Of a stretch of DNA of 64,000 bases, positions 2,760 through 43,184 are shown piece by piece. Origin of the DNA: an uncultured Acidobacteriota bacterium. GTDB lineage: Bacteria > Acidobacteriota > Vicinamibacteria > Vicinamibacterales > JAKQTR01. Positions within the stretch are counted from its first letter, which is position 1; the number at the start of each line of letters is the position of its first letter. Made by a program: the position numbers and the translations under genes. Below the pieces are notes generated by a model that saw nothing but the letters and a program-made list of their open reading frames with translations, did not search any database and had not been told where the DNA came from. Location of the stretch: contig CAVOWJ010000005.1 in the NCBI GenBank assembly GCA_963700065.1, positions 620,953 to 684,952 on the forward strand, written 5' to 3'.

Positions 2760-4050
2760 CTAGAAACTGTACCGGAGGCTGATGGTGACGTGGGAGTTCC
2801 GGTCGTAGCGGCCGAAGAAATCCTCAGGGGTGCCCGCGATGATCGTGGCGCGGGCGGTGAAGCGGAGATGCTGGCCCGACGCCTGTGAATACTCGAACCG
2901 GAGCCACGTGCCGTCGAGGTTCTGGCGGACGGCGCCTTCGAACGCCGCGCTGCGATTGGTGTCGATCGTGTAGGACACGCGGCCGAGGAAGGCCTTCGTC
3001 AGCCCGCGGTCGGGCGCGAAGGATGCCTGGACGCGCGAGGTGGTGACGACCTCGCCGGAGTAGCCGCCGATGAACATCCACTCGCCGGACTGGCGCTCGA
3101 CCTGGATGACGTAGAGCCAGGTACTGGTCGGCGCGCGAGTCGCTGGTCCCGAAAAACGCCGCCTCTCCCTTCAGCGTCACCGCCGGCAGCGGCACCGCCG
3201 CGTCGCCGCCGGCCATCCACATGGTCGGGTAGACGCGGGTGATGGGGACCTGAAGCCCGGAGGGCACGGCGTTCGCGGCGAGCGATGCCGCGGGCGGGAC
3301 CGGAATGCCCCCCGGCAGTTGCGGGGTGCCGGCCTCGATGATCGGCAGGTTGTTGTTGCCGCTGAAGGCGGACACCGAGAATTCGTAGCCCGATCCGACG
3401 TGGTTCCAGCGTGCGCCCAGCTGCGTGCGGCCCGGGTAATCCGCCCCTTCGTCGACGAGCGTCACGTTCTCCAGCTCGGCCGCCAGGCCGGCCCACCGCT
3501 GATCGAGCAGGGGCGTCCTGCTCGGGGTGAAGCGGGCCGCGACGAGATCGAGCGTGTCGGCCTGAAGCCCGGCCGTGAACCGCGCCGCCGTGACGCCGAG
3601 GAACTCGCTGTCGACAACGGCCAGGTAGTCGCGCGGCGCGAAGCGGTCGGTCGGGTTGAGGATGTCGGTCTTGCCCCACCGGACGAACTGCTTCCCGGCC
3701 TGGAGGCTGAGCGGGCCCCGGGTGAGCGTCGCGTCGAGGCGCCTGACGGCCAGCCCGGGCCGCCTCGCCGACCGGTCGCTCCAGCTGATGCCGTCCCATT
3801 CCGTCTGATCGTGTGTGTCGGCGCGAGCGTCGATGCCGCCGTTCAGCCACAGCCACGCGGCCGGCTTCGCCGCCGCCTCGTATCGCAGCAGCGCCTCCCC
3901 GACGACCTGCGTGTCGTCATTCGCCGTCGTCTGCGGATAGCCGATGCCCTTCGCCTCGATGAAGCCCTTCTGGGTGAATGCTTGCGCATGCGCGTACAGG
4001 GGCAGAAGCGCCAAGAGCGCCGCGAGCGGCAACGGCAGAGCCAGCCGCAT
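2760..4050 (-). pseudogene. Outer-membrane beta-barrel protein with its frame broken by one extra base near 3120 (pseudogene or assembly indel)
   Basis: Signal peptide MRLALPLPLAALLALLPLYAHAQA starts at ATG 4050. The body is in track ORF 2824..4398 and the last 105 aa are in track ORF 2760..3077, ending ISLRYSF (terminal Phe). Length is 1291 nt = 3n+1. Dropping one C of tacCtgg joins ...SRADQY to WLYVIQVERQSGEW. Confidence 0.65.
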
Positions 4051-10704: not shown

Positions 10705-11154
10705 GTGAAGAGCGCGGCGTATAATGCCGTCGTGGCCTCTGCCGACTGCCGCTCCGTCGTGGCCGCCCTCGAGGCGTTCTTCGCGCATCCTCCTGCCGGG
10801 ACGGCCGCCGGGTACCTTTTCGGCAGCGCGGCGCGGGGTGATGCCCGGCCGGACAGCGACCTCGACGTGGCCATCCTCTTCGAGCAGGACCCTCCGCGCA
10901 CGCTCGAAGGGCTCCACGTCGAAATCGCCGATGAGCTGCAACGTAGAATCGGCAGGCGTATCGATCTCGTCGTCCTCAACCGGGCGCCGGCCGACCTCGT
11001 GCATCGGGTGCTGCGCGACGGCATTCTGGTGTGTGATCGAAACGGGTCCGCCCGCATCCGTTTCGAGGTCCGACTCCGTAACGAGTACTTCGACATGGAA
11101 CCCGTCAGGCGCCTGTACCGCAGGCGGGTGCCGCAGGGGGTTGCCGCGCCATGA
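10705..11154 (+). CDS. mntA: MNT-type nucleotidyltransferase antitoxin
   Basis: LFGSAARGDARPDSDLDVAILF (GS-X-RG...DxD nucleotidyltransferase motif). ATGA overlap with the downstream HepT gene. Confidence 0.8.
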   Translation: MKSAAYNAVVASADCRSVVAALEAFFAHPPAGTAAGYLFGSAARGDARPDSDLDVAILFEQDPPRTLEGLHVEIADELQRRIGRRIDLVVLNRAPADLVHRVLRDGILVCDRNGSARIRFEVRLRNEYFDMEPVRRLYRRRVPQGVAAP

Positions 11155-11558
11155 CCGATCTGCCGCTCGTCGAAAAGCGCCTCGCGGTCATCGACACCTG
11201 CGTGTCGGATCTCCGCGCGCTGGCACGCCCTGATCGCCTGGACACCGACATCCGCGAACGCCGCTTCGTCGAGCGCACGCTGCAGGTCGCCATCCAGGCC
11301 GCCCTGGACGTGGCTTCTCACATCGTCTCCGAGCGGCGGTTGGGCGAGCCGGCGACGAATCGCGAGTTGTTCACCCTCCTGGAACGCGACGGTTGGGTTT
11401 CCTCCGAGCTCCGCGCACGGCTTGCCGACATGGCGGGATTTCGCAACGTGATCGTTCACGGCTACGACGACGTGGATCTGGATGTCGTGCGCGATGTCCT
11501 GAAGAATCACCTGGTGGATCTCGAACGCTTCACCGCCGGTGTCCGGCAGAAACTCTGA
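11151..11558 (+). CDS. hepT: HepT/DUF86 HEPN-domain toxin
   Basis: C-terminal RNVIVHGY matches the R-X4-H-X-Y HEPN motif. Paired with the MNT gene. Confidence 0.8.
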   Translation: MTDLPLVEKRLAVIDTCVSDLRALARPDRLDTDIRERRFVERTLQVAIQAALDVASHIVSERRLGEPATNRELFTLLERDGWVSSELRARLADMAGFRNVIVHGYDDVDLDVVRDVLKNHLVDLERFTAGVRQKL

Positions 11559-11598
11559 CACGAGAGGAGTTCCCCGGACCTGCAGGAGCCCTGACGCT

Positions 11599-12555
11599 AT
11601 GTCCGCAGACACGCCACGCGCCGAGAAGGTCGCGCGCCCGGCCGTTCCGGAACTCGACGCCATCCTGGGCGACGCGATCCGCGTCCTCGACGACGGGTTC
11701 GTGCGCGTCGTCGATTACATGGGCGACGACTCGGCGATCGTGCAGGCCGCGCGCACGTCGTACGGCAAGGGCACCAAGCGCCGGCACGAGGACCGCGGCC
11801 TCATCCGCTACCTGATGCGGCACGCCCACACGACCCCGTTCGAGATGTGCGAGATCAAGCTGCACGTGCGCGTGCCGATGGACGTGTGGCGGCAGTGGAT
11901 CCGCCATCGCACCGCGAGCGTGAACGAGTACTCCACCCGCTATTCCGAAGCGATTGACGCGGCGCAGCGGACCTCTCCCGGGGCGTGGCGGCTGCAGTCC
12001 ACAGGCAACCGCCAGGGCAGCAGCGGGCTGCTGCCGCCGGACGAGGGCAAGCGCCTCTCCGACGAGGAAGCCGCGCTGCAGCGACAGGTGCGGGACGTGT
12101 ACGAGGCGCGGCTGGCGGCCGGCGTCGCCCGCGAGCAGGCTCGCAAGGAGCTGCCGCTGTCGACCTATACCGAGGCCTACTGGAAGATCGACCTCCAGAA
12201 CCTGCTGCACTTCCTCGAACTGCGCATGGACGAGCACGCGCAGCTGGAGATCCGCGAGTACGCGAACGTCATCGGCGAACAGATCGTGGCGAAGTGGGTG
12301 CCGATGACCTGGGAAGCGTTTCTCGACTACCGGCGAGGCGCGACGCGGTTGTCGCGCATCGAGAGCACCATTCTGGAGGCGCTGGCCGCCGGCGACCGCG
12401 ACCGCGCGCTCGCGCTCGCGGACGAAGGCGGCTTCCTGAGCCGCGGCGAGGACGGGCGGCCCAGGCCGAACCTCGAAGGTCGAGAAGTCGAAGAGAAACT
12501 GGCGCGCGTCGGCCTCGAAGCGCCCTGGGCGGACGTCCACGAACCCGGGGTCTGA
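11599..12555 (+). CDS. thyX: FAD-dependent thymidylate synthase ThyX
   Basis: ThyX motif RHRTASVNEYSTRYS. Start moved to ATG 11599 (MSADTPRAEK...). Confidence 0.9.
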   Translation: MSADTPRAEKVARPAVPELDAILGDAIRVLDDGFVRVVDYMGDDSAIVQAARTSYGKGTKRRHEDRGLIRYLMRHAHTTPFEMCEIKLHVRVPMDVWRQWIRHRTASVNEYSTRYSEAIDAAQRTSPGAWRLQSTGNRQGSSGLLPPDEGKRLSDEEAALQRQVRDVYEARLAAGVAREQARKELPLSTYTEAYWKIDLQNLLHFLELRMDEHAQLEIREYANVIGEQIVAKWVPMTWEAFLDYRRGATRLSRIESTILEALAAGDRDRALALADEGGFLSRGEDGRPRPNLEGREVEEKLARVGLEAPWADVHEPGV

Positions 12556-12565
12556 AGACCCCGGG
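12544..12565. terminator. Hairpin cccggggtc-tgaa-gaccccggg; copy 1 of a 3-copy element
   Basis: 9-bp perfect stem with the thyX stop codon in the loop. It lies between convergent thyX and the small glutaredoxin-like gene. Confidence 0.5.
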
Positions 12566-12667
12566 CTCCATCACCACGGTGGAGGTCGGGCCTTCAGGCT
12601 CGACGCGGTCGCGGGCCGCGCGCGGCGGTGCCTCATGACGGCTTCACGAGCCGTCCTGCTACACCCC

Positions 12668-12880
12668 TCAACTGCCGCCGTAGCCGATGGTCACCTTCTC
12701 GTCCTCGACGATCACCGGGACGTCGCGACGGCCCTTGCTGTAGCCGAGCATGCGCTGCAGGTAGGCGGTGTTCTTCTTCACGTTGACGTACTCGACCGTG
12801 TAGCCGCGGTGTGCGAAGACCTCACGGGCCTCCGACGTGTAGGGTCAGCTGTCCTTGCCGAAGATGAGAACAGAGGGCAT
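12668..12880 (-). CDS. Glutaredoxin-fold small protein with in-frame TGA (candidate selenocysteine) at the active site
   Basis: Hand translation gives MPSVLIFGKDS-TGA-PYTSEAREVFAHRGYTVEYVNVKKNTAYLQRMLGYSKGRRDVPVIVEDEKVTIGYGGS-stop. AAGGAG lies 6 nt upstream of ATG 12880. The TGA (12845-12847) is codon 12, where glutaredoxins carry CPYC. Absent from the ORF track because of the TGA. Confidence 0.65.
12814..12834 (-). promoter_or_regulatory. SECIS-like hairpin downstream of the in-frame TGA
   Basis: mRNA CGGAGGCC-CGUGA-GGUCUUCG forms an 8-bp stem (3 G-U pairs) starting 11 nt after UGA. The 5-nt loop contains GU. Confidence 0.45.
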
Positions 12881-12896
12881 CAGTCGCTCCTTGTTC

Positions 12897-12918
12897 CCCC
12901 GGGTCTGAAGACCCGGGG
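12897..12918. terminator. Hairpin ccccgggtc-tgaa-gacccgggg; copy 2
   Basis: 9-bp perfect stem downstream of the thioesterase gene and just upstream of the RBS of the glutaredoxin-like gene. Confidence 0.45.
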
Positions 12919-12972
12919 CTCCACGACTCCCGCTGCACGCTTCAACGCCAGGTGCAGAGACCCCGGGCGCCA

Positions 12973-13494
12973 TCAGTCAAATGGGACTCCTTCGAAATCC
13001 CGAATGCGCTGCTTGATCGCGTCCGGCAGCGGCACGGTCCTGCCGGCGGCATAATCATACGCCGCCTGCACGCTTGTCGCCGTCGCGACCAGCCGTCCCA
13101 CGGGGTTCCGTATCTCGTAGACCATCGTGAAGCTGGCGCGCCCAAGCCGCGTGACGGCGATCGCGACATCGAGCGCCTCACCCGTCGTCGCCGGGGCGCG
13201 GAAGTCGATTTCGACCCGCGCGATGATGTAGCTCACGTCGCCGGCGAGCCGCCCGATGCCGGCGGCCTTCCAGTACGCGAACCGCGCCTGCTCGAGATAG
13301 GTCAGGTAGACGGCGTTGTTCACGTGGCCCATCGCGTCGCAGTCGCGGAAGCGCACCTCGATCGGGCAATGGACGCGATACCCGGGACTCGGGACTCGGG
13401 ACTCGGGGCTCGGCCCCTCGGCAGGCTCGCCGCGTTCCAAGTTGGCCGAAGGGCGATCATCGTCGAGCGGCGGGATTCCGGATTGGGATGTCAC
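12973..13494 (-). CDS. 4HBT/YbgC-type acyl-CoA thioesterase
   Basis: VRFRDCDAMGHVNNAVYLTYLEQARFAYW is hot-dog thioesterase-like. The N-terminal 40 aa are partly encoded by a heptamer array, so the true start is uncertain. Confidence 0.7.
   Translation of the reverse strand: MTSQSGIPPLDDDRPSANLERGEPAEGPSPESRVPSPGYRVHCPIEVRFRDCDAMGHVNNAVYLTYLEQARFAYWKAAGIGRLAGDVSYIIARVEIDFRAPATTGEALDVAIAVTRLGRASFTMVYEIRNPVGRLVATATSVQAAYDYAAGRTVPLPDAIKQRIRDFEGVPFD
13384..13411. repeat. Heptamer array: GGGACTC x3 plus GGGGCTC
   Basis: gggactc gggactc gggactc ggggctc, inside the 5' end of the thioesterase ORF. A related patch, cgggattccggattggg, lies at 13471-13487. Confidence 0.85.
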
Positions 13495-13498
13495 GCCC

Positions 13499-14698
13499 TC
13501 ACGCCTCCTGGGCCACCCGCGAACGCCAGAGGGCGTGGACGGCGAGCAGCGCGGCCAGTCCCATCACGGCCGCGCTGGTGATGTACGGCATGCCGATGCC
13601 TAGGTGATCGAACGCGAAGCCGCCCCACATGGGCCCGACAATCCGCGCGAGGCTGTTGAGCGACTGCGTGAGCCCCATCACGCCGCCCTGGTCCTCGGCC
13701 GTCGAGTAGCGCGAGACCAGCGACATGAGCGAGGGGCTGTTGAAGCCCATGCCCACGGCCATCACGCCGGTTGCCACCAGCAGCGCGGCCACGGACGTCG
13801 TCGCGGGAATCATCAGGAGGCCGGCGGCCACGAGGGCCAGCGACACCGGCACGACATGGTGCTCGCCGATCCGCTTCACGACGCGGCCCACCAGCGCGCC
13901 CTGCACGATCACGAGGATCACGCCGACGAGCGCGAAGATGTAGCCGATCGACGAGGCCGTGAAGCCGTACGTGCGTTCGGCGAACAGCGCGAAGGTGGAT
14001 TCGTAGCCCGAGAACGCGGCCACCACGAGGAAGCCGATGACGAGCAGCAGCGGCAGGTGCGGCCGGGCCAGCGCGGCGCGGAGCGCGTCGATGCGGCCCA
14101 CGCGTTCCATGGCGCGGTGCTCGGGCCTGAGGGACTCCGGCAGCAGGAACCACGCGGCGACGAAATTCGCGAGCGACAGGCCCGACGCGAAGAACGCCGG
14201 CACCGCGTATCCGTACTGGCTCAGGAACCCGCCGATGGCCGGGCCGAAGATGAACCCCAGGCCGAAGGCCGCGCCCACCAGGCCCATGCCCTTGGCCCGG
14301 TTCTCGGGCCTGGTGAGGTCGGCCACCACCGCCTGCGCGGTCGGGATGTTCGCGCCGGCGATGCCCGCGAAGATCCGGGCCATGAACAGCGACGGGAGCG
14401 TGCTCGCCAGGCCGAACGCGAGATACGAGAGGCAAGAGCCCAGCAGGCCCAGCAGGATGATCGGCCGCCGCCCGATGCGGTCGGAGAGGCGCCCCCAGAT
14501 GGGCGCGAAGATGAACTGCATCAGCGAGAACGAGGTGGCGAGCAGGCCGATGGTGAACCCCGTCGCCCCGAACGTCTCCGCGTAGAACGGCAGCAGCGGG
14601 ATGATGATCCCGAACCCCAGCAGGTCGATGAAGACCGTGACGAAGACGACGATCAGCGGGGATAGCTTCATTGGGGCTTCTCGATCGAGCGAGGGCAT
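13499..14698 (-). CDS. MFS transporter (drug/H+ antiporter-like)
   Basis: 12-TM-like profile. MFS motif A GRLSDRIGRRPIILLG. Confidence 0.85.
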   Translation of the reverse strand: MPSLDREAPMKLSPLIVVFVTVFIDLLGFGIIIPLLPFYAETFGATGFTIGLLATSFSLMQFIFAPIWGRLSDRIGRRPIILLGLLGSCLSYLAFGLASTLPSLFMARIFAGIAGANIPTAQAVVADLTRPENRAKGMGLVGAAFGLGFIFGPAIGGFLSQYGYAVPAFFASGLSLANFVAAWFLLPESLRPEHRAMERVGRIDALRAALARPHLPLLLVIGFLVVAAFSGYESTFALFAERTYGFTASSIGYIFALVGVILVIVQGALVGRVVKRIGEHHVVPVSLALVAAGLLMIPATTSVAALLVATGVMAVGMGFNSPSLMSLVSRYSTAEDQGGVMGLTQSLNSLARIVGPMWGGFAFDHLGIGMPYITSAAVMGLAALLAVHALWRSRVAQEA

Positions 14699-14705
14699 CT
14701 GTCCG

Positions 14706-14792
14706 TAGTCAGTAGTAAGTAGCCAGTAGCCAGTATTCAGTAGAAAGGCCTGTGAGCTGAACGGTGTTCAGCCCTACTGGCTACTGGCTACT
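14706..14792. repeat. Hairpin element with arms of CAGTAGN heptamers (18-bp pairing) and a 30-nt loop
   Basis: 14718-14735 agtagccagtagccagta is the reverse complement of 14775-14792. The loop has an inner 7-bp hairpin, gctgaac-ggt-gttcagc (14756-14772). It lies between the def stop and the MFS start. Confidence 0.8.
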
Positions 14793-15348
14793 CTTCGTGC
14801 TCCCGCTTCGCGTGATACCTCGCGAACTCCTCGATGAAGCTGAGGCTCTCCATCGACTTCATCCGGTCGAGGAACAGCACGCCGTCGAGATGGTCGGTCT
14901 CGTGCTGGATGACGCGGGCCATGAACCCGCTCGCCTGCAGCTCGATCGGCCGGCCGGCGCGGTCGTAGCCCTTCACCGAGATGTCGCGGTAGCGTGGCAC
15001 GAGGCCGCGCAGATCGGGAATGCTCAGGCAGCCCTCCCAGTCCTCTTCAATCTGCCGGCTGGCCGGCTTGATCTCGGGATTGACGAGCGCCAGGACTTCG
15101 GGCCTCCTCGCGTCGTTCTCGCTCTCCTCTTCGTCGTCCTGGTCGCGGATGACCTGCGCCACGAAGAGGCGCAGCTCCTCGTGCACCTGCGGCGCCGCCA
15201 GGCCCACGCCGTTGTACTCGAGCATGGTCTGCGCCATGTCGTCGATCAGCCGCTGGATCGGCGCCGCGGTGATGTCGGCCGCCGGCACGGGCCGCACCTT
15301 CTTCCGCAGGACCGGATGCCCCATCCGCGAGACTTTCAGGATAGACAT
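14788..15348 (-). CDS. def: Peptide deformylase
   Basis: The three PDF motifs are present: GVGLAAPQV, EGCLSIP and HETDHLDG. Confidence 0.95.
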   Translation of the reverse strand: MSILKVSRMGHPVLRKKVRPVPAADITAAPIQRLIDDMAQTMLEYNGVGLAAPQVHEELRLFVAQVIRDQDDEEESENDARRPEVLALVNPEIKPASRQIEEDWEGCLSIPDLRGLVPRYRDISVKGYDRAGRPIELQASGFMARVIQHETDHLDGVLFLDRMKSMESLSFIEEFARYHAKREHEE

Positions 15349-15381: not shown

Positions 15382-15449
15382 TGCCTCGACGAAGCCGACG
15401 GAGGCGGGCAGCAGGCCGGACGGAGGCGTAGTCGGGGGCTAGGGGCTAG
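15382..15449. repeat. Conserved ~55-nt core plus GGGGCTA heptamers; left part of an array split by an IS
   Basis: tgcctcgacgaagccgacggaggc...ccggacggaggcgtagtcgggggctaggggctag. It is about 58/72 identical by hand alignment to 22280-22351. Confidence 0.8.
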
Positions 15450-16846
15450 CAGCCCGTGGCGGAAGCGGCGATTTCGCGCCAGTTCATAGTTGGCCACGAT
15501 AAGACATCGTGACGATGAGCGTTCACATCGACCGGATTCTTCGGGCGCCTTGGAGGCCGCTGGTGGCTCCACGTGGTCGTCAGGGACGCCCAGGCGGCGG
15601 CGAGCGGCGCCACGAGGCGGCCCTGGAGGCCGCGGGGCGTCCCCACGCCGAGCAGCGTCCGCATGACGAGCCCGAGGTTGAAGCCGCCGGCATGCACGAG
15701 GAGCCGTTTCAGAATGTTGCTGTGCCCGCGCAGATGCGTGCGTCGCATGCCGCCCGTTTCGTAGGCGTGCGCAAACGTCCGTTCCAGCCGTTCGCCGCGC
15801 AGCCGGCGCAAGCGCTGCCCGCGGCTCCCCTTGATGCGGCGGCGGTTGGCGTACACCGCGCGCTGCGCCTGGGCCTTCCCGCGCCAGTTCCGCCGGCCGC
15901 GGGCTGGCTCCGAGATGTACGTCCGCACGCCGAGGGCGTCCAAGTCCGTCACCACCTCGTTACTGTGGTACCCCTTGTCGGTGACGACGTCGAGGTCGCT
16001 CGCCGCGTCCAGGCCGACCGTCGCTTCGAGCTGTTCCGTGGCCATCACCAGCGTCGCCTGAATCGTCTGCGTGTCGCCGGCATCCGCCCGTTGGACCGTC
16101 ACCGCGACGATCGCCCCGCATTCCAGATCGACGGCGTGCTCCGCTTTGTGCGCCAGATGCGTGCGTCCGTCTTTCATCTTCGTGATCGATGCGTCTGGGT
16201 CCTGCGGATGCTGCCAGTCGTCGTTCGAGCCCTTCTTCTTCCGCTTCTTGTCGATCTTCGCCAAGTCTTCTCGGGTCGGCGTCGCAATCCCCGACGCCTG
16301 AGCCAGCTTCGTCAAGAACTCCTGGTACGTGTCCCCCGTGTCGCGGCGCACGATGCTGCGCAACGCCGCGTTGGCCTCCAGCGTCGTGCCGTCGATTCCC
16401 AGAGGCCCGCCGCGCATCAGTCCCCGCTCGACCAGCCGCTGCTGGATCCACGTGAACACGGCCCGGTGCGTCTCCACATCAATCAGCCGGCGCGTCCGCG
16501 AGATCGTCGAGTGGTCGGCCACGTCCTCATCCAGCCCCACACGCAGGAACCGGCGGATGGCGAGCGAGTCGGCTGCCCGCCATGCGATCCCGCGCTCCGA
16601 ATCCAAGCCTTCGAAGTAGCCGATCAACAACAACCGGAAGTAGATCCCCGGCGCCAAGCTCGGCCGTCCCATCGTCGGCGCGTAGAACGCGCGGCACGTC
16701 TCCTCCACGAACGCATCGAAGCCCGAGTCGTCCAGGAGGACATTCAGCCGCTGGTAGAACGGGTGCGCCGCCGTGCTCGGCAACTCGGCCACCGGGATCC
16801 ACAGGCTCTCTTGTCGGCGCCGTTTGCGTCGCGTGCCCATCGCCAT
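15446..16846 (-). CDS. IS5/IS1182-family DDE transposase
   Basis: 466 aa. N-terminal InsH-like block HPFYQRLNVLLDDSGFDAFVEETCRAFYAPTMGRPSLAPGIYFRLLLIGYFEGLDSERG, and a C-terminal DDE region. Confidence 0.85.
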   Translation of the reverse strand: MAMGTRRKRRRQESLWIPVAELPSTAAHPFYQRLNVLLDDSGFDAFVEETCRAFYAPTMGRPSLAPGIYFRLLLIGYFEGLDSERGIAWRAADSLAIRRFLRVGLDEDVADHSTISRTRRLIDVETHRAVFTWIQQRLVERGLMRGGPLGIDGTTLEANAALRSIVRRDTGDTYQEFLTKLAQASGIATPTREDLAKIDKKRKKKGSNDDWQHPQDPDASITKMKDGRTHLAHKAEHAVDLECGAIVAVTVQRADAGDTQTIQATLVMATEQLEATVGLDAASDLDVVTDKGYHSNEVVTDLDALGVRTYISEPARGRRNWRGKAQAQRAVYANRRRIKGSRGQRLRRLRGERLERTFAHAYETGGMRRTHLRGHSNILKRLLVHAGGFNLGLVMRTLLGVGTPRGLQGRLVAPLAAAWASLTTTWSHQRPPRRPKNPVDVNAHRHDVLSWPTMNWREIAASATGC

Positions 16847-18078: not shown

Positions 18079-18100
18079 CCCCGGGTCTGAAGACCCGGGG
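18079..18100. terminator. Hairpin ccccgggtc-tgaa-gacccgggg; copy 3
   Basis: 9-bp perfect stem between the convergent lipoprotein gene and thiI, followed by gctccatca as in copy 1. Confidence 0.5.
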
Positions 18101-21604: not shown

Positions 21605-22597
21605 TCAGGCCGCCCGGGGCCGGCTCCAGGAGACCGCGCTCCAGACGAGCGCCGGGACGTCGGCAGCGCCAAGCGTTGGCCGCGACGTGAAGACATCGAA
21701 GCCCGAACGCTCGAGGCGTTCGAGCACGCGCACGCCGCCGAGCCACGTCAGCCGCAGCTCGTACCGCAGGCGGCCCTCGAGGCCGTCGGCCACGGCGCGG
21801 CCGTCGTCGAACAGCGCACGGGTGCGCTCGGCCATCTCGAACATCACGGCACGCCAGGCCGGCGACATCGAGCGCGCGTCGAGATCGCCTTCGGACGCGC
21901 CGACGCGTTCGCGATCCTCGCGCGGCACGTAGAGACGGCCCTTCCGCCAGTCGCGCTCGAGATCCTGCCAGAAGTTGGTGAGCTGGAGCGCCGTGCAGAC
22001 CGCGTCGGAGGCTGCGTCGAGTCGGGCGTCGGCACGCCCGGCCACGCGAAGCACCAGGCGGCCCACCGGGTTCGCCGAGCGCCGGCAGTAGTCCATGACA
22101 TCGGCCCACGTCTCGTAGCGCGTCGTGACAACATCCTGCCGGAAGGCCGACAGCAGATCCTCGAACAGGCCGACCGGCAGTGAAAGCGTACCGATGGTGC
22201 GGGAGAGGGCGAGGAAGATGGCGTCGGCTTCAGGGACAAGGGGCAAGGGGCCTGGGGCAAGGGGCCTGGGGCATGGGCTTGCCTCGACGAAGCCGACGGA
22301 GGCTTCTGCCGAGCCGGACGGAGGCGCAGTCGGGGGCTCGGGGCTCGGGCGAACCGCCGGTCTGCTGCGCTCGCACGCCGACAGGCGAGCGCCCCAGTCG
22401 TCGAGCAGCGCGAGGCGATCGGCGGCCGGCACGTCGCCTTCGTCGGCGAAGTCGTCGGCGGTGCGGGCGAACGCGTAGATGGCCGCGATGTGCGGGCGCA
22501 TCGCGGCCGGAAGCAGGAACGAGGCGACGGGAAAGTTCTCGTAGTGCCGGCGGGCGATGCGCTCGCAGACCCCGTAGGCCTCGCCGGCGGTCACCAC
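21605..22597 (-). CDS. hpnC: Hydroxysqualene synthase (HpnC; squalene/phytoene synthase family) carrying a repeat-encoded in-frame insertion
   Basis: ERIARRHYENFPVAS, FARTADDFADE and NFWQDLERDWRKGRLYVP. A GTG start overlaps the upstream stop (GTGGTGA at 22591-22597). About 45 aa (RPAVRPSPEPP...PLPLVPE) are encoded by the heptamer/core element at 22233-22350. Confidence 0.75.
   Translation of the reverse strand: MVTAGEAYGVCERIARRHYENFPVASFLLPAAMRPHIAAIYAFARTADDFADEGDVPAADRLALLDDWGARLSACERSRPAVRPSPEPPTAPPSGSAEASVGFVEASPCPRPLAPGPLPLVPEADAIFLALSRTIGTLSLPVGLFEDLLSAFRQDVVTTRYETWADVMDYCRRSANPVGRLVLRVAGRADARLDAASDAVCTALQLTNFWQDLERDWRKGRLYVPREDRERVGASEGDLDARSMSPAWRAVMFEMAERTRALFDDGRAVADGLEGRLRYELRLTWLGGVRVLERLERSGFDVFTSRPTLGAADVPALVWSAVSWSRPRAA
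22233..22350. repeat. Heptamer arrays flanking the conserved core, located inside the hpnC coding sequence
   Basis: gggacaa ggggcaa ggggcct ggggcaa ggggcct ggggcat, then core tgcctcgacgaagccgacggaggc...ccggacggaggcgcagtc, then gggggctc ggggctc. The core is homologous to the non-coding copy at 15382-15449. Confidence 0.85.
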
Positions 22598-23124
22598 TCG
22601 GCCTCGGCCACCCCGGCGCGGCTGTTCACCACGCGAGCGAGCACGAACAGCAGGTCCGACAGGCGGTTCATGTAGGCGAGGAACTCGACCTCGAGCACGG
22701 CCAGCGCCACCATGCGCCGCTCGGCGCGCCGGCAGACCGTGCGCGCGAGATGAAGCGCGGCCGCCGCGGAGGTGCCGCCCGGCAGGATGAAGCGGCGCAG
22801 CGGCTTCAGCTCCTCCTCGCACGTGTCGATCCAGCCCTCGAGTCTGGCGACGTCGGCAGGGCCGAGCGCGACCTTCGTCACGCGGTCGGCGATCCGCTCG
22901 GCCGGATCCGCAAGGCGCGAGCCGAGCGCGAACAGGTCGCGTTGGATCTGCCCCAGCATCTCCTCGATGTCCTTGTCGACGCCGCTCGCACGCGCCACGC
23001 CGACGGCCGCGTTCGCCTCGTCGACCTCGCCGTAGGCGTCCACGCGCGGGTCCGACTTGGCGATCCGCGTGCCGTCGAAGAGCGTCGTGGCGCCGCCGTC
23101 CCCGGTTCGTGTGTAGATCTTCAT
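22591..23124 (-). CDS. PduO-type ATP:cob(I)alamin adenosyltransferase
   Basis: Start MKIYTRTGDGGATTLFDG. FILPGG and LHLARTVCRRAER are typical of the family. Confidence 0.85.
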   Translation of the reverse strand: MKIYTRTGDGGATTLFDGTRIAKSDPRVDAYGEVDEANAAVGVARASGVDKDIEEMLGQIQRDLFALGSRLADPAERIADRVTKVALGPADVARLEGWIDTCEEELKPLRRFILPGGTSAAAALHLARTVCRRAERRMVALAVLEVEFLAYMNRLSDLLFVLARVVNSRAGVAEAEW

Positions 23125-23133
23125 GCAGGTTGA

Positions 23134-23160
23134 ATTATAAGTGTGGAGATGGAGTTTCAA
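23134..23160 (-). promoter_or_regulatory. Candidate sigma70 promoter (TTGAAA-15 nt-TATAAT) giving a leaderless or near-leaderless transcript
   Basis: On the minus strand, TTGAAA (23160-23155) and TATAAT (23139-23134). The -10 ends 9 nt before ATG 23124. This is an AT-rich pair in otherwise GC-rich DNA. Confidence 0.4.
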
Positions 23161-23192
23161 CACCGTAACAGGCGGAGCCCGGCGGACGGCCG

Positions 23193-23915
23193 ATGACGGC
23201 CCGGAAGGCAGCACGGAAGAGCGCCTCCCAACGCCTGCCCGACCTGCCCACACCAGTACCGGCCGCGCGCCAGCGGTTCCGGCGGACGCTGCTGCACTGG
23301 TACGACCGGCACGGCCGCGACCTGCCGTGGCGCCGCACCGACGATCCGTACCACATCCTGGTGTCGGAGATCATGCTGCAGCAGACCCAGGTTGACCGCG
23401 TGCTGCCGAAGTACCACGAATGGCTCGGCAAGTTCCCGTCGCTCCGCGCGCTGGCGGGCGCCGGCGAGGAGGCGGCCGTCCGGACCTGGTATCCCCTCGG
23501 CTACAACATCAGGCCGCGGAGGCTCCACGCAATCGCGCGCGAAGCCGTCGCCAGCTACGGCGGCGAGCTCCCCGACGATGAGGCGACGCTGCGGTCGTTC
23601 AAGGGCATCGGCCCCTATACGGCCGGGGCGTTGATGAGCTTTGCGTTCAGGCGGCGCGCGCCGATTCTCGACACCAACGTCGCCCGGGTCCTCTTCCGCG
23701 TCATCGTCGGCCGCGGCGACGCGAAATCCCACCGGATGAAGCAGCACCTGTGGAGAGTGTCGGCCCTGATGGTGCCGCACAAGCGGGCGTTCGACTTCAA
23801 TCAGGCCATCATGGATTTCGGCGCCATGGTCTGCACGGCGCGCAAGCCGAAGTGCGCCGCGTGCCCCATGTCCGGCATGTGCCGGTCGTTCCCATTCGAC
23901 GCGAGCGAAAAATAG
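23193..23915 (+). CDS. mutY: HhH-GPD adenine glycosylase, MutY-like catalytic domain only
   Basis: PYHILVSEIMLQQTQV, HhH FKGIGPYTAGALMSFAF, and Fe-S loop CTARKPKCAACPMSGMC. There is no fused C-terminal NUDIX-like domain. Confidence 0.75.
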   Translation: MTARKAARKSASQRLPDLPTPVPAARQRFRRTLLHWYDRHGRDLPWRRTDDPYHILVSEIMLQQTQVDRVLPKYHEWLGKFPSLRALAGAGEEAAVRTWYPLGYNIRPRRLHAIAREAVASYGGELPDDEATLRSFKGIGPYTAGALMSFAFRRRAPILDTNVARVLFRVIVGRGDAKSHRMKQHLWRVSALMVPHKRAFDFNQAIMDFGAMVCTARKPKCAACPMSGMCRSFPFDASEK

Positions 23916-38143: not shown

Positions 38144-38260
38144 GCCTCACGTTACCGGCAGCGTCGCGACACTGTCAACAGCGCGCGCCCGCCTCCGCTG
38201 AACGGCCTGACGGCCAGCTCCGGCGCGGTCTCGCGACGTGGCTCGACCTTGTGCTCGACC

Positions 38261-38290
38261 TTGCTCCGGGCGCCGCGCGGCGCCTACAAT
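38261..38290 (+). promoter_or_regulatory. Candidate sigma70 promoter for the response-regulator gene (TTGCTC-18 nt-TACAAT)
   Basis: TTGCTC at 38261-38266 and TACAAT at 38285-38290. The -35 overlaps the second copy of a direct repeat, gctcgaccttg (38241-38251 and 38253-38263). Confidence 0.3.
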
Positions 38291-38330
38291 CAGCCGACTT
38301 CTGCGCCCCGCGCCCGAAAGGACCGCACCC

Positions 38331-39728
<1,398 letters not shown>

Positions 39729-40002
39729 CCCTTGCAGGCTGCGTGGGTCAGCGACGAATCTGAACCTTGGGGGCGTCGCAGAAACTGCAACGGGTGTCTC
39801 GCTCTGATGTGGCAGCTGCCGCCACGTGTCTCCATTGTGGACACCGACGCGCACGGGCGTCTGCTGGCAGGATGCACCCACCATTCACGAGGCGCTTTCG
39901 CGTCATAATCGCTGCGTTCAAAGGGTCTCGTCGGCACGCGGCGCGCGGCGGCCCGCAGGGTCCGGCCGCCCCGGCCGGGGCTGCAGCCCCTCCCGCCGCC
40001 GC

Positions 40003-40018
40003 CGGAACGCCCCTTGCA
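40003..40018 (+). promoter_or_regulatory. Candidate sigma54 -24/-12 promoter
   Basis: CGGAACG-CCCC-TTGCA versus consensus TGGCACG-N4-TTGCW. GG and GC have the correct spacing. It lies 27 nt upstream of the rSAM ATG (40045). Confidence 0.4.
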
Positions 40019-40044
40019 ATGGAGAGCCGGGGGATCGACCCGCG

Positions 40045-41488
40045 ATGAAACCGTCTGCCTTCAACGTCCGCGTGCCGCTCGCCAGCGGCGAGGTGTTCCT
40101 GATGAACACCCTCACCGACGCCCAGGCGGTGGTGTCGGACGACGTGGTCGAGCTGCTCGACAGGCTGGATGCGGGCGCCGCCGACCCGGCGGCGGTCTCG
40201 CCGGCCGACGAGCACGCGCTCAAGGCGCTGGCCGAGAACGGCTTTCTCGTCCGCCACGATTCGTCGGAGCGGGCGGCGCTCGAATCGGTACTTTGCCGCG
40301 TTCCGCGACGACCCGTCGCAGCTGCGCGTCACCATCCTCACCACCCTGCAGTGCAACTTCGCCTGCGACTACTGCTACCAGGGCGAGCATGCCGGCGACG
40401 GGCGGACCGCGGATCGCATGCCGATCGACACCGCCGCGAAGGTGGCGGCCTGGATCGCCGGCCGGGTGGAGGAGGTGCAGCCGCGCCGGCTCGTGCTCAC
40501 CTTCTTCGGGGGCGAGCCGCTGCTGAACGTGCCGGCAATCTTCGAGATCGCAGGGCGCCTGTCGAGGCACACGGCGGCGCGCGACGTGGCGCAGTCGGTC
40601 AATGTCATCACCAACGGCCTCCTGCTCACGCCGGACCTCGTCAAGGCCATGCTGCCGCTCGGCCTCACCGGCGTGAAGGTCACCCTCGACGGCGACCGCG
40701 ACACCCACGACCGCATGCGCCCGCTGCGGGGCGGCCAGGGCACGTTCGACCGTATCATCGAGAACGTCCGCCGCGTGGCGCCGCTGGTGCCGATCACCAT
40801 CGGCGGCAACTTCGACGCGGACACGGCCGACCGTTACCCGGCGCTCCTCGATTTTCTGAAGGAGCAGGAGTTCGCCGCCCGCATCAACAAGGTCGCGTTC
40901 AAGCCGGTCATCAGGCCCGCGGCGGCCGAGGCTCCCGCCGGCGTCATCCCGCTGCAGCCGGTCGATTCGAACAGCCGGCCGCTCGGCGGCGGCTGCATGA
41001 CGGCGGCGGGGCCGTCAACGGGACGGACGGCGAAGTCCGGCTGCTCGCCCTGCGACAGCTGCAATCTCGCGGACGACCAGATGTCGTATCTGCGGGAGGA
41101 GACGCAGAGGAGAGGGTTTCCGGCGCCCGACGGCGTGCACATGGGGCCGTGCGAGATCTTCCGACGCCACTCGCACACCATCGGGCCGGACGGCTCGCTC
41201 TATGCCTGCCCCGGGTTCACGGGGGAGTACGCGCTGAGCGTCGGCCACATCGACGGCCGGTGCGAGCCCGATCACGCCGCGGCGGCGCGCCGGTTGGAGC
41301 ATTTGGCGCCGTGGCGCCACTGCGGCGACTGCCCGTTCATTCCGGTATGCGGCGGCGGCTGTGCCGTTGCCGCCCATGCCGAGCTTGGCGACATGGACGC
41401 GCCCTCGTGTCACAAGCGGAGCTTCGAAGCGGCGCTCACTTCGCTCGCGGCGGAGGCCGCGGGCCATCAGGCAGGAGGAGTACAATGA
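40045..41488 (+). pseudogene. Radical SAM/SPASM-domain peptide maturase with an N-terminal RRE-like domain; frame broken by one extra base near 40287
   Basis: MKPSAFNVRVPLASGEVFLMNTL...ALAENGFLV is RRE/PqqD-like. CNFACDYC is the CxxxCxxC cluster. FFGGEPLL. SPASM YACPGF...WRHCGDCPFIPVCGGGC. The first 80 aa are in track ORF 39826..41577 and the rest in 40169..41488. Length is 1444 nt = 3n+1. Dropping one G of tcGgtac gives ...AALESYFAAFRDDPSQLRV. Confidence 0.8.
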
Positions 41489-41577
41489 AGGTCAAGGTTC
41501 TGAAGGGTGCCAAGAAGGCTCCGTCGCGTGAGATGTGCCCGTGGATGATCACCGTGCCGCCGGAGAGCGGCAAGTAG
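41485..41577 (+). CDS. 30-aa small ORF; candidate precursor peptide for the rSAM/SPASM enzyme
   Basis: MKVKVLKGAKKAPSREMCPWMITVPPESGK. The ATG overlaps the maturase stop (ATGA 41485-41488). AGGAGGAG lies 4 nt upstream of the ATG. Confidence 0.5.
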   Translation: MKVKVLKGAKKAPSREMCPWMITVPPESGK

Positions 41578-41634
41578 GGGACGATCGTACCGACTGGGAG
41601 CTGCCGGACGGACGCCAGCCCGGACAGGTACGAG

Positions 41635-41666
41635 TCTGCGCAGCCACGCGCGCGTGGCTGCGCAGA
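41635..41666. promoter_or_regulatory. Perfect 32-bp palindrome
   Basis: tctgcgcagccacgcg|cgcgtggctgcgcaga, 16+16 with no mismatch and no loop. It lies 58 nt after the small-ORF stop and overlaps the probable SBP start region. Confidence 0.6.
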
Positions 41667-43184
41667 TCTGTACCTCGCTTGGCAGTGGCCGGGGCGCTGT
41701 CTGCCTTTGCATGTTCGGGCCCGTCGGCGGGGCCCGCTGCGCCGCGCGGCCCGCTGACTCTCACGATCGGCGTTCCCCAGAGCCGTCAACTCCGTCCCGG
41801 CCGCGGCGCGCAACTCATTGCCGAGTTCCTCGCCTTCGAACGCCTGACGACCAACGACGCCGACGGCCGCACCAGGCCGCTGCTTCTCGAGGGCTGGCAA
41901 ACCTCGACCGACGGTCTCACGTGGGAGCTTCGCGTCCGCCCAGATACCCGGTTTCAGGACGGCGCGCCGCTTGGCGCCGCCGACATCACGCGCACGTTCG
42001 ACGCGGCGATGGCGGATCCGGCCCTGCGAGGCATTTCCGTCTGCCTGCCGAACATCGCATCGGTCGTCGCGCGAGGCGACCTTGCCGTCGTCGTCACGCT
42101 GACGCAGCGCTGCTCCTACCTGCTCGACGATCTCGACCTGGCCATCAAGAAGACTGCGCCCGACGGGGACGGGAAGACCCACATCGGCACAGGCCCCTTC
42201 GCGATTGTCTCGTCGTCGCCCGACGCCATCGTCCTCGAAGCCAACGGCAGCTATCACGGCGGCGCTCCTGCGATCGATCGCGTGGTCATCAGGCCGTTCG
42301 ACGCGCTGCGCAAGGCGTGGTCCGGGATGATGCGCGGCGAGGTGGATTTTCTCTGGGAGGTCGGCCCCGACACGGCCGAGTTCCTGAGCGACCAGTCCAC
42401 GGTGGCCGTGCGTTCGTATCTCAGCTACTACGCCTACGCGGTGATGTTGAACTCGGCCCGGCCGGCGTTCCGCCGGTCCGAGGTGAGGCGCGCGCTGAAC
42501 CTGGCCGTCGACAGGCCCACGATCGTGAGGCAGGGCCTGCGAACTCGGGGCCTGCCCGCCGACGGCCCCGTGTGGCCGCGCTACTGGGCGCGCGACACGG
42601 CAGCCAGGCCCGCCGCGTTCGATCCCGCCGGGGCCGAGGCGCTGCTGCATGCCGCGGGAGCGGAGGCGCTCGAGTTCACGTGCCTCGTGCCGGCGGACTT
42701 CTCGATCCTGGAACGCATGGCGCTCGTCGTGCAGCGGCAGTTCGCCGACGTCGGCGTGCGCATGCGACTCGAATCGCTGCCTCCGGACGCGTTCGAACTC
42801 CGTATCTTGTCGGGCGACTTCGACGCGGTGCTCATCTCGGTTGTCAGCGGCCCGTCGGCGACGGTGTATCACCGCCTCTGGCACTCGCCGGGCGAGACGC
42901 CGCGCTGGAACTTCTGGGGGTATCGCAACGCCGGCGTCGATGCCGCGCTTGATGCCGCGCTGGCCGCGCCGGCCGGCGGGCCTGGCGAAGCGGCGTTCGG
43001 CGCGGCCATGGCGCGGTTCGAGGCCGCCGTGCGCGACGATCCGCCCGCGGTGTTCCTCGCGTGGAGCCAGGCCGTGCAGGCCGTGAGCCGCCGCTTCGCG
43101 CTGCCACCTGACAGCGACGGCCGAGACGCCATCTACGTGGTCAACCGGTGGCTGCTGCGCCGGCCGGGAGCGGACGGCCGATGA
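41658..43184 (+). CDS. Periplasmic solute-binding protein, family 5 (peptide/nickel type); start uncertain
   Basis: Signal-like RRSVPRLAVAGALSAFA|CSG. Family-5 blocks RFQDGAPLGAADITRTFD and IGTGPFAIVSS. The only in-frame ATG (41535) lies inside the peptide ORF and gives a 40-aa non-signal extension. CTG 41658, TTG 41679 or GTG 41685 are alternatives. Confidence 0.75.
   Translation: MRRSVPRLAVAGALSAFACSGPSAGPAAPRGPLTLTIGVPQSRQLRPGRGAQLIAEFLAFERLTTNDADGRTRPLLLEGWQTSTDGLTWELRVRPDTRFQDGAPLGAADITRTFDAAMADPALRGISVCLPNIASVVARGDLAVVVTLTQRCSYLLDDLDLAIKKTAPDGDGKTHIGTGPFAIVSSSPDAIVLEANGSYHGGAPAIDRVVIRPFDALRKAWSGMMRGEVDFLWEVGPDTAEFLSDQSTVAVRSYLSYYAYAVMLNSARPAFRRSEVRRALNLAVDRPTIVRQGLRTRGLPADGPVWPRYWARDTAARPAAFDPAGAEALLHAAGAEALEFTCLVPADFSILERMALVVQRQFADVGVRMRLESLPPDAFELRILSGDFDAVLISVVSGPSATVYHRLWHSPGETPRWNFWGYRNAGVDAALDAALAAPAGGPGEAAFGAAMARFEAAVRDDPPAVFLAWSQAVQAVSRRFALPPDSDGRDAIYVVNRWLLRRPGADGR

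What the first reader, a model, noticed from the sequence alone, without database searches (positions are those of the whole stretch)
12668..12880. Hidden selenoprotein candidate: glutaredoxin-fold ORF with TGA at the redox-active position and a SECIS-like hairpin
Reading through TGA 12845-12847 gives a 70-codon glutaredoxin-like protein. It has the beta-alpha-beta start VLIFGKDS-U-PYT and the C-terminal RRDVPVIVEDEKVTIGYGG, equivalent to the cis-Pro and GG regions. The TGA lies exactly where CPYC/CPYS Cys1 sits. AAGGAG lies 6 nt before the ATG. Eleven nt after the TGA the mRNA can fold as CGGAGGCC-CGUGA-GGUCUUCG, an 8-bp stem with GU in the loop. This fits the spacing rules described for bacterial SECIS elements. 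The ORF track shows only an antisense shadow ORF here (12635..13054+). The Sec machinery (selA, selB, selC, selD) is not in this window.
Basis: partly seen in the sequence, partly recalled or inferred. Interest (0 to 1): 0.7.

Follow-up and report, generated by a model that had tools for sequence, protein, structure and literature searches.

The report
Known two-selenocysteine glutaredoxin-like gene (UXX-star)
This is a real but already catalogued small selenoprotein gene: a 73-residue glutaredoxin-like protein with two selenocysteines, not one, which ordinary gene finders miss because both are written as TGA stop codons.

Summary
On the minus strand, AAGGAG, a 6-nt spacer and ATG 12880 open a glutaredoxin-fold ORF with an in-frame TGA (12847-12845) at the active-site Cys position, followed by an 8-bp hairpin.

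The "stop" TGA 12670-12668 is a second selenocysteine codon, followed by GGG GTG TAG. The product is 73 aa and ends GGS-U-G-V-stop.

With U written as C, it matches NCBIfam NF041114 "UXX-star selenoprotein family 1" end to end (115.5 bits, cutoff 72). A 2026 review lists that family with motif UxxT and 2 Sec.

In 73 related loci plus the window:
- The N-terminal site is TGA in 50 and Cys in 22.
- The C-terminal site is TGA, then 2 codons (3 in one locus), then a stop, in 73 of 74.
- A covarying 6-9 bp hairpin with loop N-G-U/G-N-N follows the second TGA at a near-fixed distance.

The window's two hairpins share the loop CGUGA.

Not shown: Sec machinery (none among 40 window proteins; the source genome could not be found) and biochemical function.

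Verdict: a genuine selenoprotein gene of a known family, so low novelty.

The parts
12659..12880 (-). Full coding sequence of the two-Sec glutaredoxin-like selenoprotein: 73 codons plus the TAG stop. Product: MPSVLIFGKDS-U-PYTSEAREVFAHRGYTVEYVNVKKNTAYLQRMLGYSKGRRDVPVIVEDEKVTIGYGGS-U-GV.
   Evidence: Translation. NF041114 scores 115.5 bits and covers profile positions 1-70 of 70. GC3 is 0.90, like the window's real genes, and dN/dS against relatives is 0.2-0.5.
12887..12892 (-). Shine-Dalgarno-like AAGGAG, 6 nt upstream of the ATG.
   Evidence: Read directly from the sequence.
12845..12847 (-). Sec codon 1: the TGA at the U of the UPYT active-site motif.
   Evidence: It aligns with Cys11 of E. 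coli Grx3. The same codon is TGA in 50 of the window plus 73 loci and TGC/TGT in 22.
12814..12834 (-). SECIS-like hairpin 1, inside the ORF: CGGAGGCC / loop CGUGA / GGUCUUCG, starting 10 nt after the TGA.
   Evidence: Fold. TGA loci fold more stably here than Cys loci, p = 3e-4. Covariation is modest: 0.19 against 0.13 in shuffles, 0 of 500 shuffles as high.
12668..12670 (-).
   Evidence: In 73 of 74 sequences this codon is TGA, followed by 2 codons (3 in one locus) and then a stop. Including the tail raises the NF041114 score from 106.7 to 115.5 bits.
12659..12661 (-). The true stop codon, TAG.
12637..12655 (-). SECIS-like hairpin 2, in the 3' UTR: GACGGCU / loop CGUGA / AGCCGUC. The stem starts 12 nt after TGA 2 and 3 nt after the stop.
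   Evidence: Fold. A homologous hairpin is present in the related loci: the stem starts 9-14 nt after the UGA in 63 of 72, and the second loop base is G in 52 of 56. Covariation is 0.91 against 0.23 in shuffles. The hairpins are stronger than shuffled or random windows.

Best explanation
Window 12659-12880(-) encodes a 73-residue selenoprotein of the curated family 'UXX-star selenoprotein family 1' (NCBIfam NF041114, also called 'distant Grx-like protein 1'). It has a glutaredoxin fold but lacks the last helix. It carries selenocysteine at two places: U12 in the UPYT motif, where glutaredoxins have the nucleophilic Cys, and U71 in the C-terminal tail GGS-U-G-V-stop.

Each UGA is recoded by its own downstream hairpin: 12814-12834 inside the ORF and 12637-12655 just past the TAG stop. 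Both hairpins place the same CGUGA loop at positions 22-27 counted from the U of their UGA. This geometry fits a SelB-bound bacterial SECIS.

Shown here: the gene structure, family membership, the Sec/Cys pairing at site 1, the invariance of the TGA-XX-stop tail, and the conserved, covarying hairpins.

Inferred: the protein contains no cysteine, and the +3 position is Thr rather than the resolving Cys. The two selenols are therefore the only redox-active groups. The Gly-rich tail starts right after the GG motif that lines the glutaredoxin active site. The most likely chemistry is a reversible intramolecular diselenide U12-U71 (a selenenylsulfide in the Cys12 variants of other species). That would make it a small oxidoreductase or redox shuttle whose flexible Sec tail works like the GCUG tail of mammalian thioredoxin reductase.

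The confidence of 0.9 is for the identity as a two-Sec UXX-star family 1 gene. The diselenide mechanism alone is about 0.4.
For: **Family membership.** NF041114 scores 106.7 bits without the tail and 115.5 bits with it, against a cutoff of 72, and the match covers profile 1-70 of 70. Review PMC13188914 lists NF041114 with motif UxxT and 2 Sec.

**Codon conservation (window plus 73 loci).** Site 1 is TGA in 50 and Cys in 22. Site 2 is TGA in 73 of 74, followed by a 2-codon tail in 72 of 73: GV 49, AV 9, GI 5, EV 4.

**Motifs (71 sequences).** The +3 residue is Thr in 67. There is no other Cys between the two sites in 67. The residues before the tail are GGT or GGS in 67.

**Site-2 hairpin.**
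- The stem starts 9-14 nt after the UGA in 63 of 72 loci. The loop contains a G in 71 of 72. Only 4 have a U-run after the stem.
- In 56 hairpins anchored on the loop, loop position 2 is G in 52 and there are 49 distinct 5' stems.
- 89% of cells are paired against 51% in shuffles, with 142 double-change cells against 48.
- Mean hairpin energy is -10.8, against -7.9 in dinucleotide shuffles (p = 3e-11) and -6.1 in random windows (p = 1e-17).

**Site-1 hairpin.** It is stronger in TGA loci than in Cys loci (p = 3e-4), with modest covariation.

**Coding signal.** GC3 is 0.90 and dN/dS is 0.2-0.5.

**Genetic code.** TGA is an ordinary stop in this window, ending 24 of 43 genes.

**Fold.** Pfam PF00462 matches, and the Grx3 alignment places U12 on Cys11 and VP on the cis-Pro.
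Against: - No SelA, SelB, SelD or tRNA-Sec lies in the 64-kb window. The source genome could not be located, with three exact-protein look-ups empty. Sec decoding in this organism is therefore assumed, not shown.
- Neither hairpin is significant on the window sequence alone: z = -0.96 and -1.6, and the best site-2 hairpin equals the shuffle mean.
- Site-1 covariation is weak because the stem lies in conserved codons.
- The site-2 covariation count used hairpins chosen by folding, which favours pairing.
- The diselenide mechanism is pure inference. No structure could be predicted. No partner gene is conserved across phyla. The review reports that others suggest metal binding.
Confidence: 0.9

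Rival explanations
1. One reading: a single-Sec glutaredoxin of 70 residues in which TGA 12670-12668 is the real stop, and the hairpin after it is a transcription terminator.
For: TGA is the commonest ordinary stop in this window, ending 24 of 43 genes. A G+C-rich hairpin just after a gene is what a terminator looks like.
Against: - In 73 of 74 sequences the TGA is followed by exactly 2 sense codons (3 in one locus) and then a stop. Those residues are conserved: G/A/E, then V/I/L.
- The family HMM includes these positions and gains 8.8 bits from them.
- Only 4 of 72 hairpins are followed by a U-run.
- Hairpin position is tied to the UGA rather than to the stop, and the loop keeps G then U/G at positions 2-3.
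Confidence: 0.04
2. A dead or untranslated relic: the genome has lost the Sec machinery, so the gene yields only an 11-residue peptide.
For: No Sec machinery lies in the window, and the rest of the genome could not be examined.
Against: - Both TGA codons, both hairpins, the Shine-Dalgarno site and the reading frame are intact.
- GC3 is 0.90 and dN/dS is 0.2-0.5 against relatives at 82-87% identity.
- Synteny (def, MFS, thioesterase, this gene, thyX) is kept in seven related genomes that also carry the double-TGA form.
Confidence: 0.04
3. An assembly or sequencing error of TGC/TGT, or a reassigned TGA (genetic code 4 or 25), making this an ordinary Cys, Trp or Gly protein.
For: 22 homologues do have Cys at site 1.
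Against: - TGA recurs at the same codon in 49 independent related assemblies besides the window, and at site 2 in 72 of the 73 related loci.
- 24 of 43 window genes end in TGA.
- In 36 of 73 sequences the final stop of this very gene is TGA.
Confidence: 0.01
4. Same gene and same two Sec residues, but a different job: the two selenols chelate a soft metal or metalloid (Hg, As, Cu) or carry selenium or sulfur, rather than cycling as a diselenide oxidoreductase.
For: [quoted passage not shown] Site 2 has no Cys form among the 73 related loci, which is unusual for redox selenoproteins.
Against: - No metal-resistance or transporter partner is conserved next to the gene across phyla. The recurrent neighbours are def, a YbgC-like thioesterase and thyX.
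- The fold and the position of U12 are those of a thiol-disulfide oxidoreductase.
Confidence: 0.25

Closest known systems
UXX-star selenoprotein family 1 (NCBIfam NF041114; 'distant Grx-like protein 1')
   Same: Full-length equivalog-level match: 115.5 bits against a cutoff of 72, covering profile 1-70 of 70. It has the UxxT motif, two Sec residues and the C-terminal U-X-X-stop.
   Different: Nothing of kind. This is another orthologue, probably from a Vicinamibacterales (Acidobacteriota) genome. The best relative found is 87% identical.
Other UXX-star families (NF041212 subfamily, NF041211 family 2, NF047338 family 3, NF045501 HUGP/GUXX-star fusion)
   Same: Glutaredoxin-like core and a Sec-X-X-stop tail. 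The NF041212 subfamily model is passed: 86 bits against 66.
   Different: Scores for family 2 (40.3 against 100), family 3 (51.9 against 97) and the fusion (48.4 against 325) are below their cutoffs. The review lists family 2 with a single Sec in a GxGU motif.
Classical glutaredoxins, e.g. E. coli Grx3 (PDB 1FOV/3GRX), and the Sec-containing Grx of Clostridium oremlandii cited in the review
   Same: Thioredoxin/glutaredoxin fold, a nucleophile at the N-terminus of helix 1 in a C/U-P-Y-x motif, a cis-Pro VP, and a GG motif.
   Different: - TIGR02181 scores 37 bits against a cutoff of 90.
- The +3 residue is Thr, not Cys or Ser.
- The protein ends right after the GG motif, so the last helix is missing.
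- It has a second Sec in the tail.
C-terminal GCUG redox tail of mammalian thioredoxin reductase (from general knowledge, not tested here)
   Same: A penultimate-region Sec on a flexible Gly-rich C-terminal tail, decoded by a SECIS in the 3' UTR.
   Different: Unrelated fold (flavoprotein), eukaryotic SECIS machinery, and a tail containing a vicinal Cys-Sec pair. This is an analogy of mechanism only.

Membership tests
[quoted passage not shown] | Score at or above the curated equivalog cutoff over the full length of the model | tested here: met
   115.5 bits against a cutoff of 72; protein residues 4-73 match profile positions 1-70 of 70. With X at the first Sec position and without the tail the score is still 99.6 bits.
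[quoted passage not shown] | C-terminal Sec-X-X-stop | tested here: met
   TGA GGG GTG TAG at 12670-12659(-). The same pattern, with the same register, is present in 72 of the 73 related loci.
[quoted passage not shown] | N-terminal U/C-x-x-T motif; two Sec per protein, as listed in the review | tested here: met
   UPYT in the window. The +3 residue is Thr in 67 of 71 sequences. The review table gives 'UxxT, 2'.
[quoted passage not shown] | Glutaredoxin-like fold | tested here: met
   PF00462 scores 41.1 bits against 22.9. The sequence aligns to Grx3 structures 3GRX/1FOV with E about 4e-4. No 3-D model could be made.
Bacterial selenoprotein (general) | SECIS hairpin at the right distance downstream of each UGA | tested here: met
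   - Site 2: position, loop G-U/G and covariation are all conserved.
- Site 1: the hairpin is present and stronger in TGA loci than in Cys loci, but covariation is modest.
- Neither hairpin is significant on the window sequence alone.
Bacterial selenoprotein (general) | Cys-containing homologues aligning with the UGA | tested here: met
   At site 1, 22 of 72 resolved sequences have TGC or TGT. At site 2, none of the 73 related loci has Cys.
Bacterial selenoprotein (general) | selA, selB, selC and selD present in the same genome | not testable with these tools
   They are absent from the window. The source genome is not on record.
Bacterial selenoprotein (general) | Selenium actually incorporated into the protein | not testable with these tools
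   This needs 75Se labelling or mass spectrometry.
Canonical glutaredoxin (TIGR02181 GRX_bact / TIGR02196 YruB / NrdH) | Score above the family cutoff; CxxC/S active site; C-terminal helix | tested here: not met
   Scores are 37 against 90 for TIGR02181 and 36.9 against 88.55 for TIGR02196, and 19.9 against 85.75 for NrdH. The motif is UPYT, and the protein ends 7 residues after the IG of the GG motif.

The most novel reading that the evidence does not exclude
The C-terminal Sec is obligatory: 73 of 73 resolved sequences have TGA there and none has a Cys form. The active-site position, by contrast, switches freely between Sec and Cys (50 to 22). This would fit a protein that works through an intramolecular diselenide or selenenylsulfide between a glutaredoxin active site and a mobile Sec tail. 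That would be a natural bacterial diselenide redox shuttle, or a dedicated selenium or metalloid carrier. To my knowledge (the main primary paper on the family was not held), none has been characterised biochemically. It would be widespread in aerobic soil Acidobacteriota, which are not usually thought of as rich in selenoproteins.
Probability: 0.3. Interest if true: 0.5.

Novelty: already known. Interest (0 to 1): 0.2.

Why it matters
For annotation: standard ORF finders miss this gene entirely and show only an antisense shadow ORF. The correct model needs two recoded TGA codons and a stop 9 nt beyond the apparent one. A pipeline that uses NF041114 should name it correctly.

For biology: it is one more orthologue of a family whose function has not, as far as the material I could read shows, been tested experimentally. 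The comparative picture here could guide a first biochemical study. That picture is an invariant tail Sec, an interchangeable Sec/Cys active site, no other cysteine, and two separate SECIS hairpins in a 222-nt gene. None of it changes what is already catalogued.

Tried and rejected
- **Rfam.** The whole window at gathering threshold gave no hit. A permissive local search found no SECIS family, only weak Acido-Lenti-1 hits on the flanking palindromes.
- **Finding the source genome.** Exact look-ups of three window proteins (def, thiI, MFS) were not on record, so Sec machinery could not be sought beyond the window.
- **Structure prediction.** No 3-D model or fold search was possible.
- **Sequences containing U.** Cluster look-up and HMM search did not accept the letter U.
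- **MAFFT plus RNAalifold on the 48 nt after TGA 2.** This predicted no pairs, because variable spacers put the hairpins out of register. I replaced it with hairpins anchored on the loop and with shuffle and random-window controls.
- **Conserved partner gene across phyla.** None was found. The largest neighbour 'cluster' was the antisense shadow of the gene itself.
- **Other split-by-TGA coding ORFs.** A crude screen of intergenic gaps found only the target.
- **Literature.** Haft & Tolstoy 2025 (mSystems), the main paper on the UXX-star families, is not held. The GOS 2008 paper that the review cites for this family does not use the name in its main text.
- **Deliberately not run.** I did not run the 5.8-billion-protein homology search, because the NCBIfam equivalog hit and the 73 loci already settle identity and novelty.

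Full report
**1. What is in the sequence**

On the minus strand, AAGGAG (12892-12887) is followed after 6 nt by ATG 12880-12878. Translating from there gives MPSVLIFGKDS, then TGA (12847-12845). It continues PYTSEAREVFAHRGYTVEYVNVKKNTAYLQRMLGYSKGRRDVPVIVEDEKVTIGYGGS, then TGA (12670-12668), then GGG GTG TAG.

It is CGGAGGCC / CGUGA / GGUCUUCG at 12834-12814: 8 pairs including two G-U, with 10 nt between the TGA and the stem. The mechanical ORF list shows only short sense-strand fragments and the antisense 12635..13054(+) ORF.

On its own, the hairpin is not better than chance in this 70% G+C DNA: z = -0.96, and 42 of 200 shuffles fold as well.

**2. Identity**

With the first TGA written as Cys, the protein matches Pfam Glutaredoxin PF00462 (41.1 bits against a cutoff of 22.9). 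The best NCBIfam hit is NF041114, 'UXX-star selenoprotein family 1', at 106.7 bits against a cutoff of 72.

The apparent stop TGA 12670-12668 is followed by two sense codons and a TAG, which is a Sec-X-X-stop tail. Adding these three residues raises the score to 115.5 bits, and the match then covers the whole profile, positions 1-70 of 70.

[quoted passage not shown] That is exactly this architecture.

Canonical glutaredoxin and NrdH/YruB models score far below their cutoffs. The nearest solved structures are E. coli Grx3 (3GRX/1FOV, E about 4e-4). In that alignment the first Sec aligns with Cys11 of CPYC and VP aligns with the cis-Pro TVP. The protein stops just after the GG motif, so the last glutaredoxin helix is missing.

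**3. Comparative test of the two TGA codons**

A scan of one genome per species returned 73 related loci. They come mostly from Vicinamibacterales and other Acidobacteriota (best 87% identity). Others come from Thermodesulfobacteriota, Nitrospirota, Methylomirabilota/NC10, Gemmatimonadota and Binatia. I read the DNA of each locus.

- **Site 1.** The codon is TGA in 50 sequences (window included) and TGC/TGT in 22. Two are unresolved: one frameshift and one contig end.
- **Site 2.** The codon is TGA in 73 of 74. It is followed by two codons (three in one locus) and a stop. The tails are GV 49, AV 9, GI 5 and EV 4. The final stop is itself TGA in 36.
- **Motifs.** Among 71 sequences, the +3 residue of the N-terminal motif is Thr in 67. 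There is no other Cys between the two sites in 67. The residues before the tail Sec are GGT or GGS in 67.

This rules out an assembly error, a reassigned TGA and a simple stop at 12668. In addition, 24 of 43 genes in the window end in TGA. The gene has GC3 of 0.90, like the window's real genes. Its dN/dS is 0.2-0.5 against eight relatives.

**4. The two SECIS elements**

*Site 2.* In the window, UGA is followed by GGGGUGUAGCAG and then GACGGCU / CGUGA / AGCCGUC (12655-12637).

- Among 72 loci the best hairpin starts 9-14 nt after the UGA in 63, and its loop starts at position 21-25 in 57.
- The loop contains a G in 71 and GU in 55.
- Only 4 hairpins are followed by a U-run, so these are not typical intrinsic terminators.
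- In 56 hairpins anchored on the loop, loop position 2 is G in 52 and position 3 is U or G in 55. There are 49 different 5' stems.
- On that alignment 89% of cells pair against 51% after shuffling. There are 142 double-change cells against 48. The covariation score is 0.91 against 0.23, with 0 of 500 shuffles as high, and slid registers give 0.06-0.20.

These hairpins were chosen by folding, which favours pairing, so I also used unbiased controls. The best-hairpin energy averages -10.8 kcal/mol. That compares with -7.9 for dinucleotide shuffles (Wilcoxon p = 3e-11) and -6.1 for random windows of the same loci (p = 1e-17). For the window alone the value equals its shuffle mean, so the support is comparative.

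*Site 1.* The alignment is gapless because the region is coding.

- Its covariation score is 0.19 against 0.13, with 0 of 500 shuffles as high and slid registers at 0.07-0.17.
- The inner five pairs are the best kept.
- Loci with TGA fold more stably downstream than loci with Cys: -10.1 against -7.0 kcal/mol, p = 3e-4.

Several lineages have loops such as AGGUC. From general knowledge, that resembles the E. coli fdhF SECIS loop.

The window's two hairpins carry the identical loop CGUGA, at positions 22-26 and 23-27 counted from the U of their UGA.

**5. Context**

The gene lies at the end of a minus-strand run:

- peptide deformylase, 14788-15348
- MFS transporter, 13499-14698
- YbgC-like thioesterase, 12973-13494
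- this gene, which is convergent with thyX (11539-12555, plus strand)

This order is kept in seven related Acidobacteriota loci. def lies nearby in 18 loci and the thioesterase in 14. No neighbour is conserved across phyla, so context says little about function.

None of 40 window proteins is SelA, SelB or SelD, and there is no tRNA gene. The source genome is not in the exact-protein index. The presence of the Sec machinery therefore remains untested.

**6. Mechanism**

Shown: the recoding architecture, with two UGA codons and two hairpins, and family membership.

Inferred: the protein has no cysteine and no resolving residue at +3, so U12 and U71 are its only redox-active groups. The Gly-rich tail begins right after the GG motif. 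From general knowledge of glutaredoxins, that motif lines the active-site groove. The most economical model is a reversible U12-U71 diselenide, or a selenenylsulfide where site 1 is Cys. The mobile Sec tail would act as the resolving or shuttling group, by analogy with the GCUG tail of thioredoxin reductase.

The review reports an alternative suggestion, that the Sec residues bind metals or unknown substrates. I cannot exclude this. The complete absence of Cys forms at site 2 is compatible with either model.

**7. Verdict**

The gene is 12659-12880(-) with two Sec codons and two SECIS hairpins.

It is an equivalog-level member of an already curated and reviewed family. Novelty is low ('already known') and interest is modest.

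Confidence is about 0.9 that this is a two-Sec UXX-star family 1 gene. It is about 0.4 for the diselenide mechanism.

Noticed in passing
window 12545-12564, 12898-12917, 18080-18099 (+): A roughly 30-nt palindromic element (CCCCGGGTCTGAAGACCCGGGGCTCCAT) occurs three times, against 0.07 expected by chance. Two copies bracket the selenoprotein gene. Each copy lies just 3' of a minus-strand gene (the selenoprotein gene, the thioesterase and thiI). The two copies folded (12545, 12898) form strong hairpins (z = -2.7 and -3.5) without a U-run. The same two give weak, sub-threshold Rfam hits to RF01687 Acido-Lenti-1 (18.5 and 16.1 bits against 37). The element is absent from all 73 related loci. It may be a REP-like or terminator-like repeat specific to this genome.
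   Followed up: partly
window 15446-16846 (-): An IS1182/IS5-like transposase gene sits between peptide deformylase and a Nudix hydrolase. Those two genes are adjacent in the closest relatives (L001, L004, L005), so this looks like a recent insertion. A second transposase, of the IS701 family, lies at 53239-54468(+).
   Followed up: partly
window 10705-11558 (+): A type VII toxin-antitoxin pair: MntA adenylyltransferase antitoxin and HepT RNase toxin. It lies immediately upstream of thyX and overlaps its start. It is also present in L004.
   Followed up: no
window 38238-44968 (+): A possible RiPP-type cluster. It contains a sigma-54 response regulator, a radical SAM/SPASM peptide maturase (best hit 'geopeptide' maturase, 247 bits, below its cutoff of 400), an ABC substrate-binding protein and a sensor histidine kinase.
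   Followed up: no
L001, L004, L005 (about 3205-3252 in each locus): The closest relatives of the window gene (82-87% identity) lack the near hairpin after the second UGA. Instead they have a weaker candidate with loop GUGAA starting at about position 35 in L001 and L004; L005 folds differently. The window and more distant relatives keep the loop at positions 21-25. The 3' SECIS has apparently been remodelled within this clade.
   Followed up: partly
window 48808-50496 (-): A protein resembling the corrinoid activation/regeneration protein AcsV (346 bits, below its cutoff of 800). A PduO-type corrinoid adenosyltransferase lies elsewhere in the window, at 22591-23370(-).
   Followed up: no
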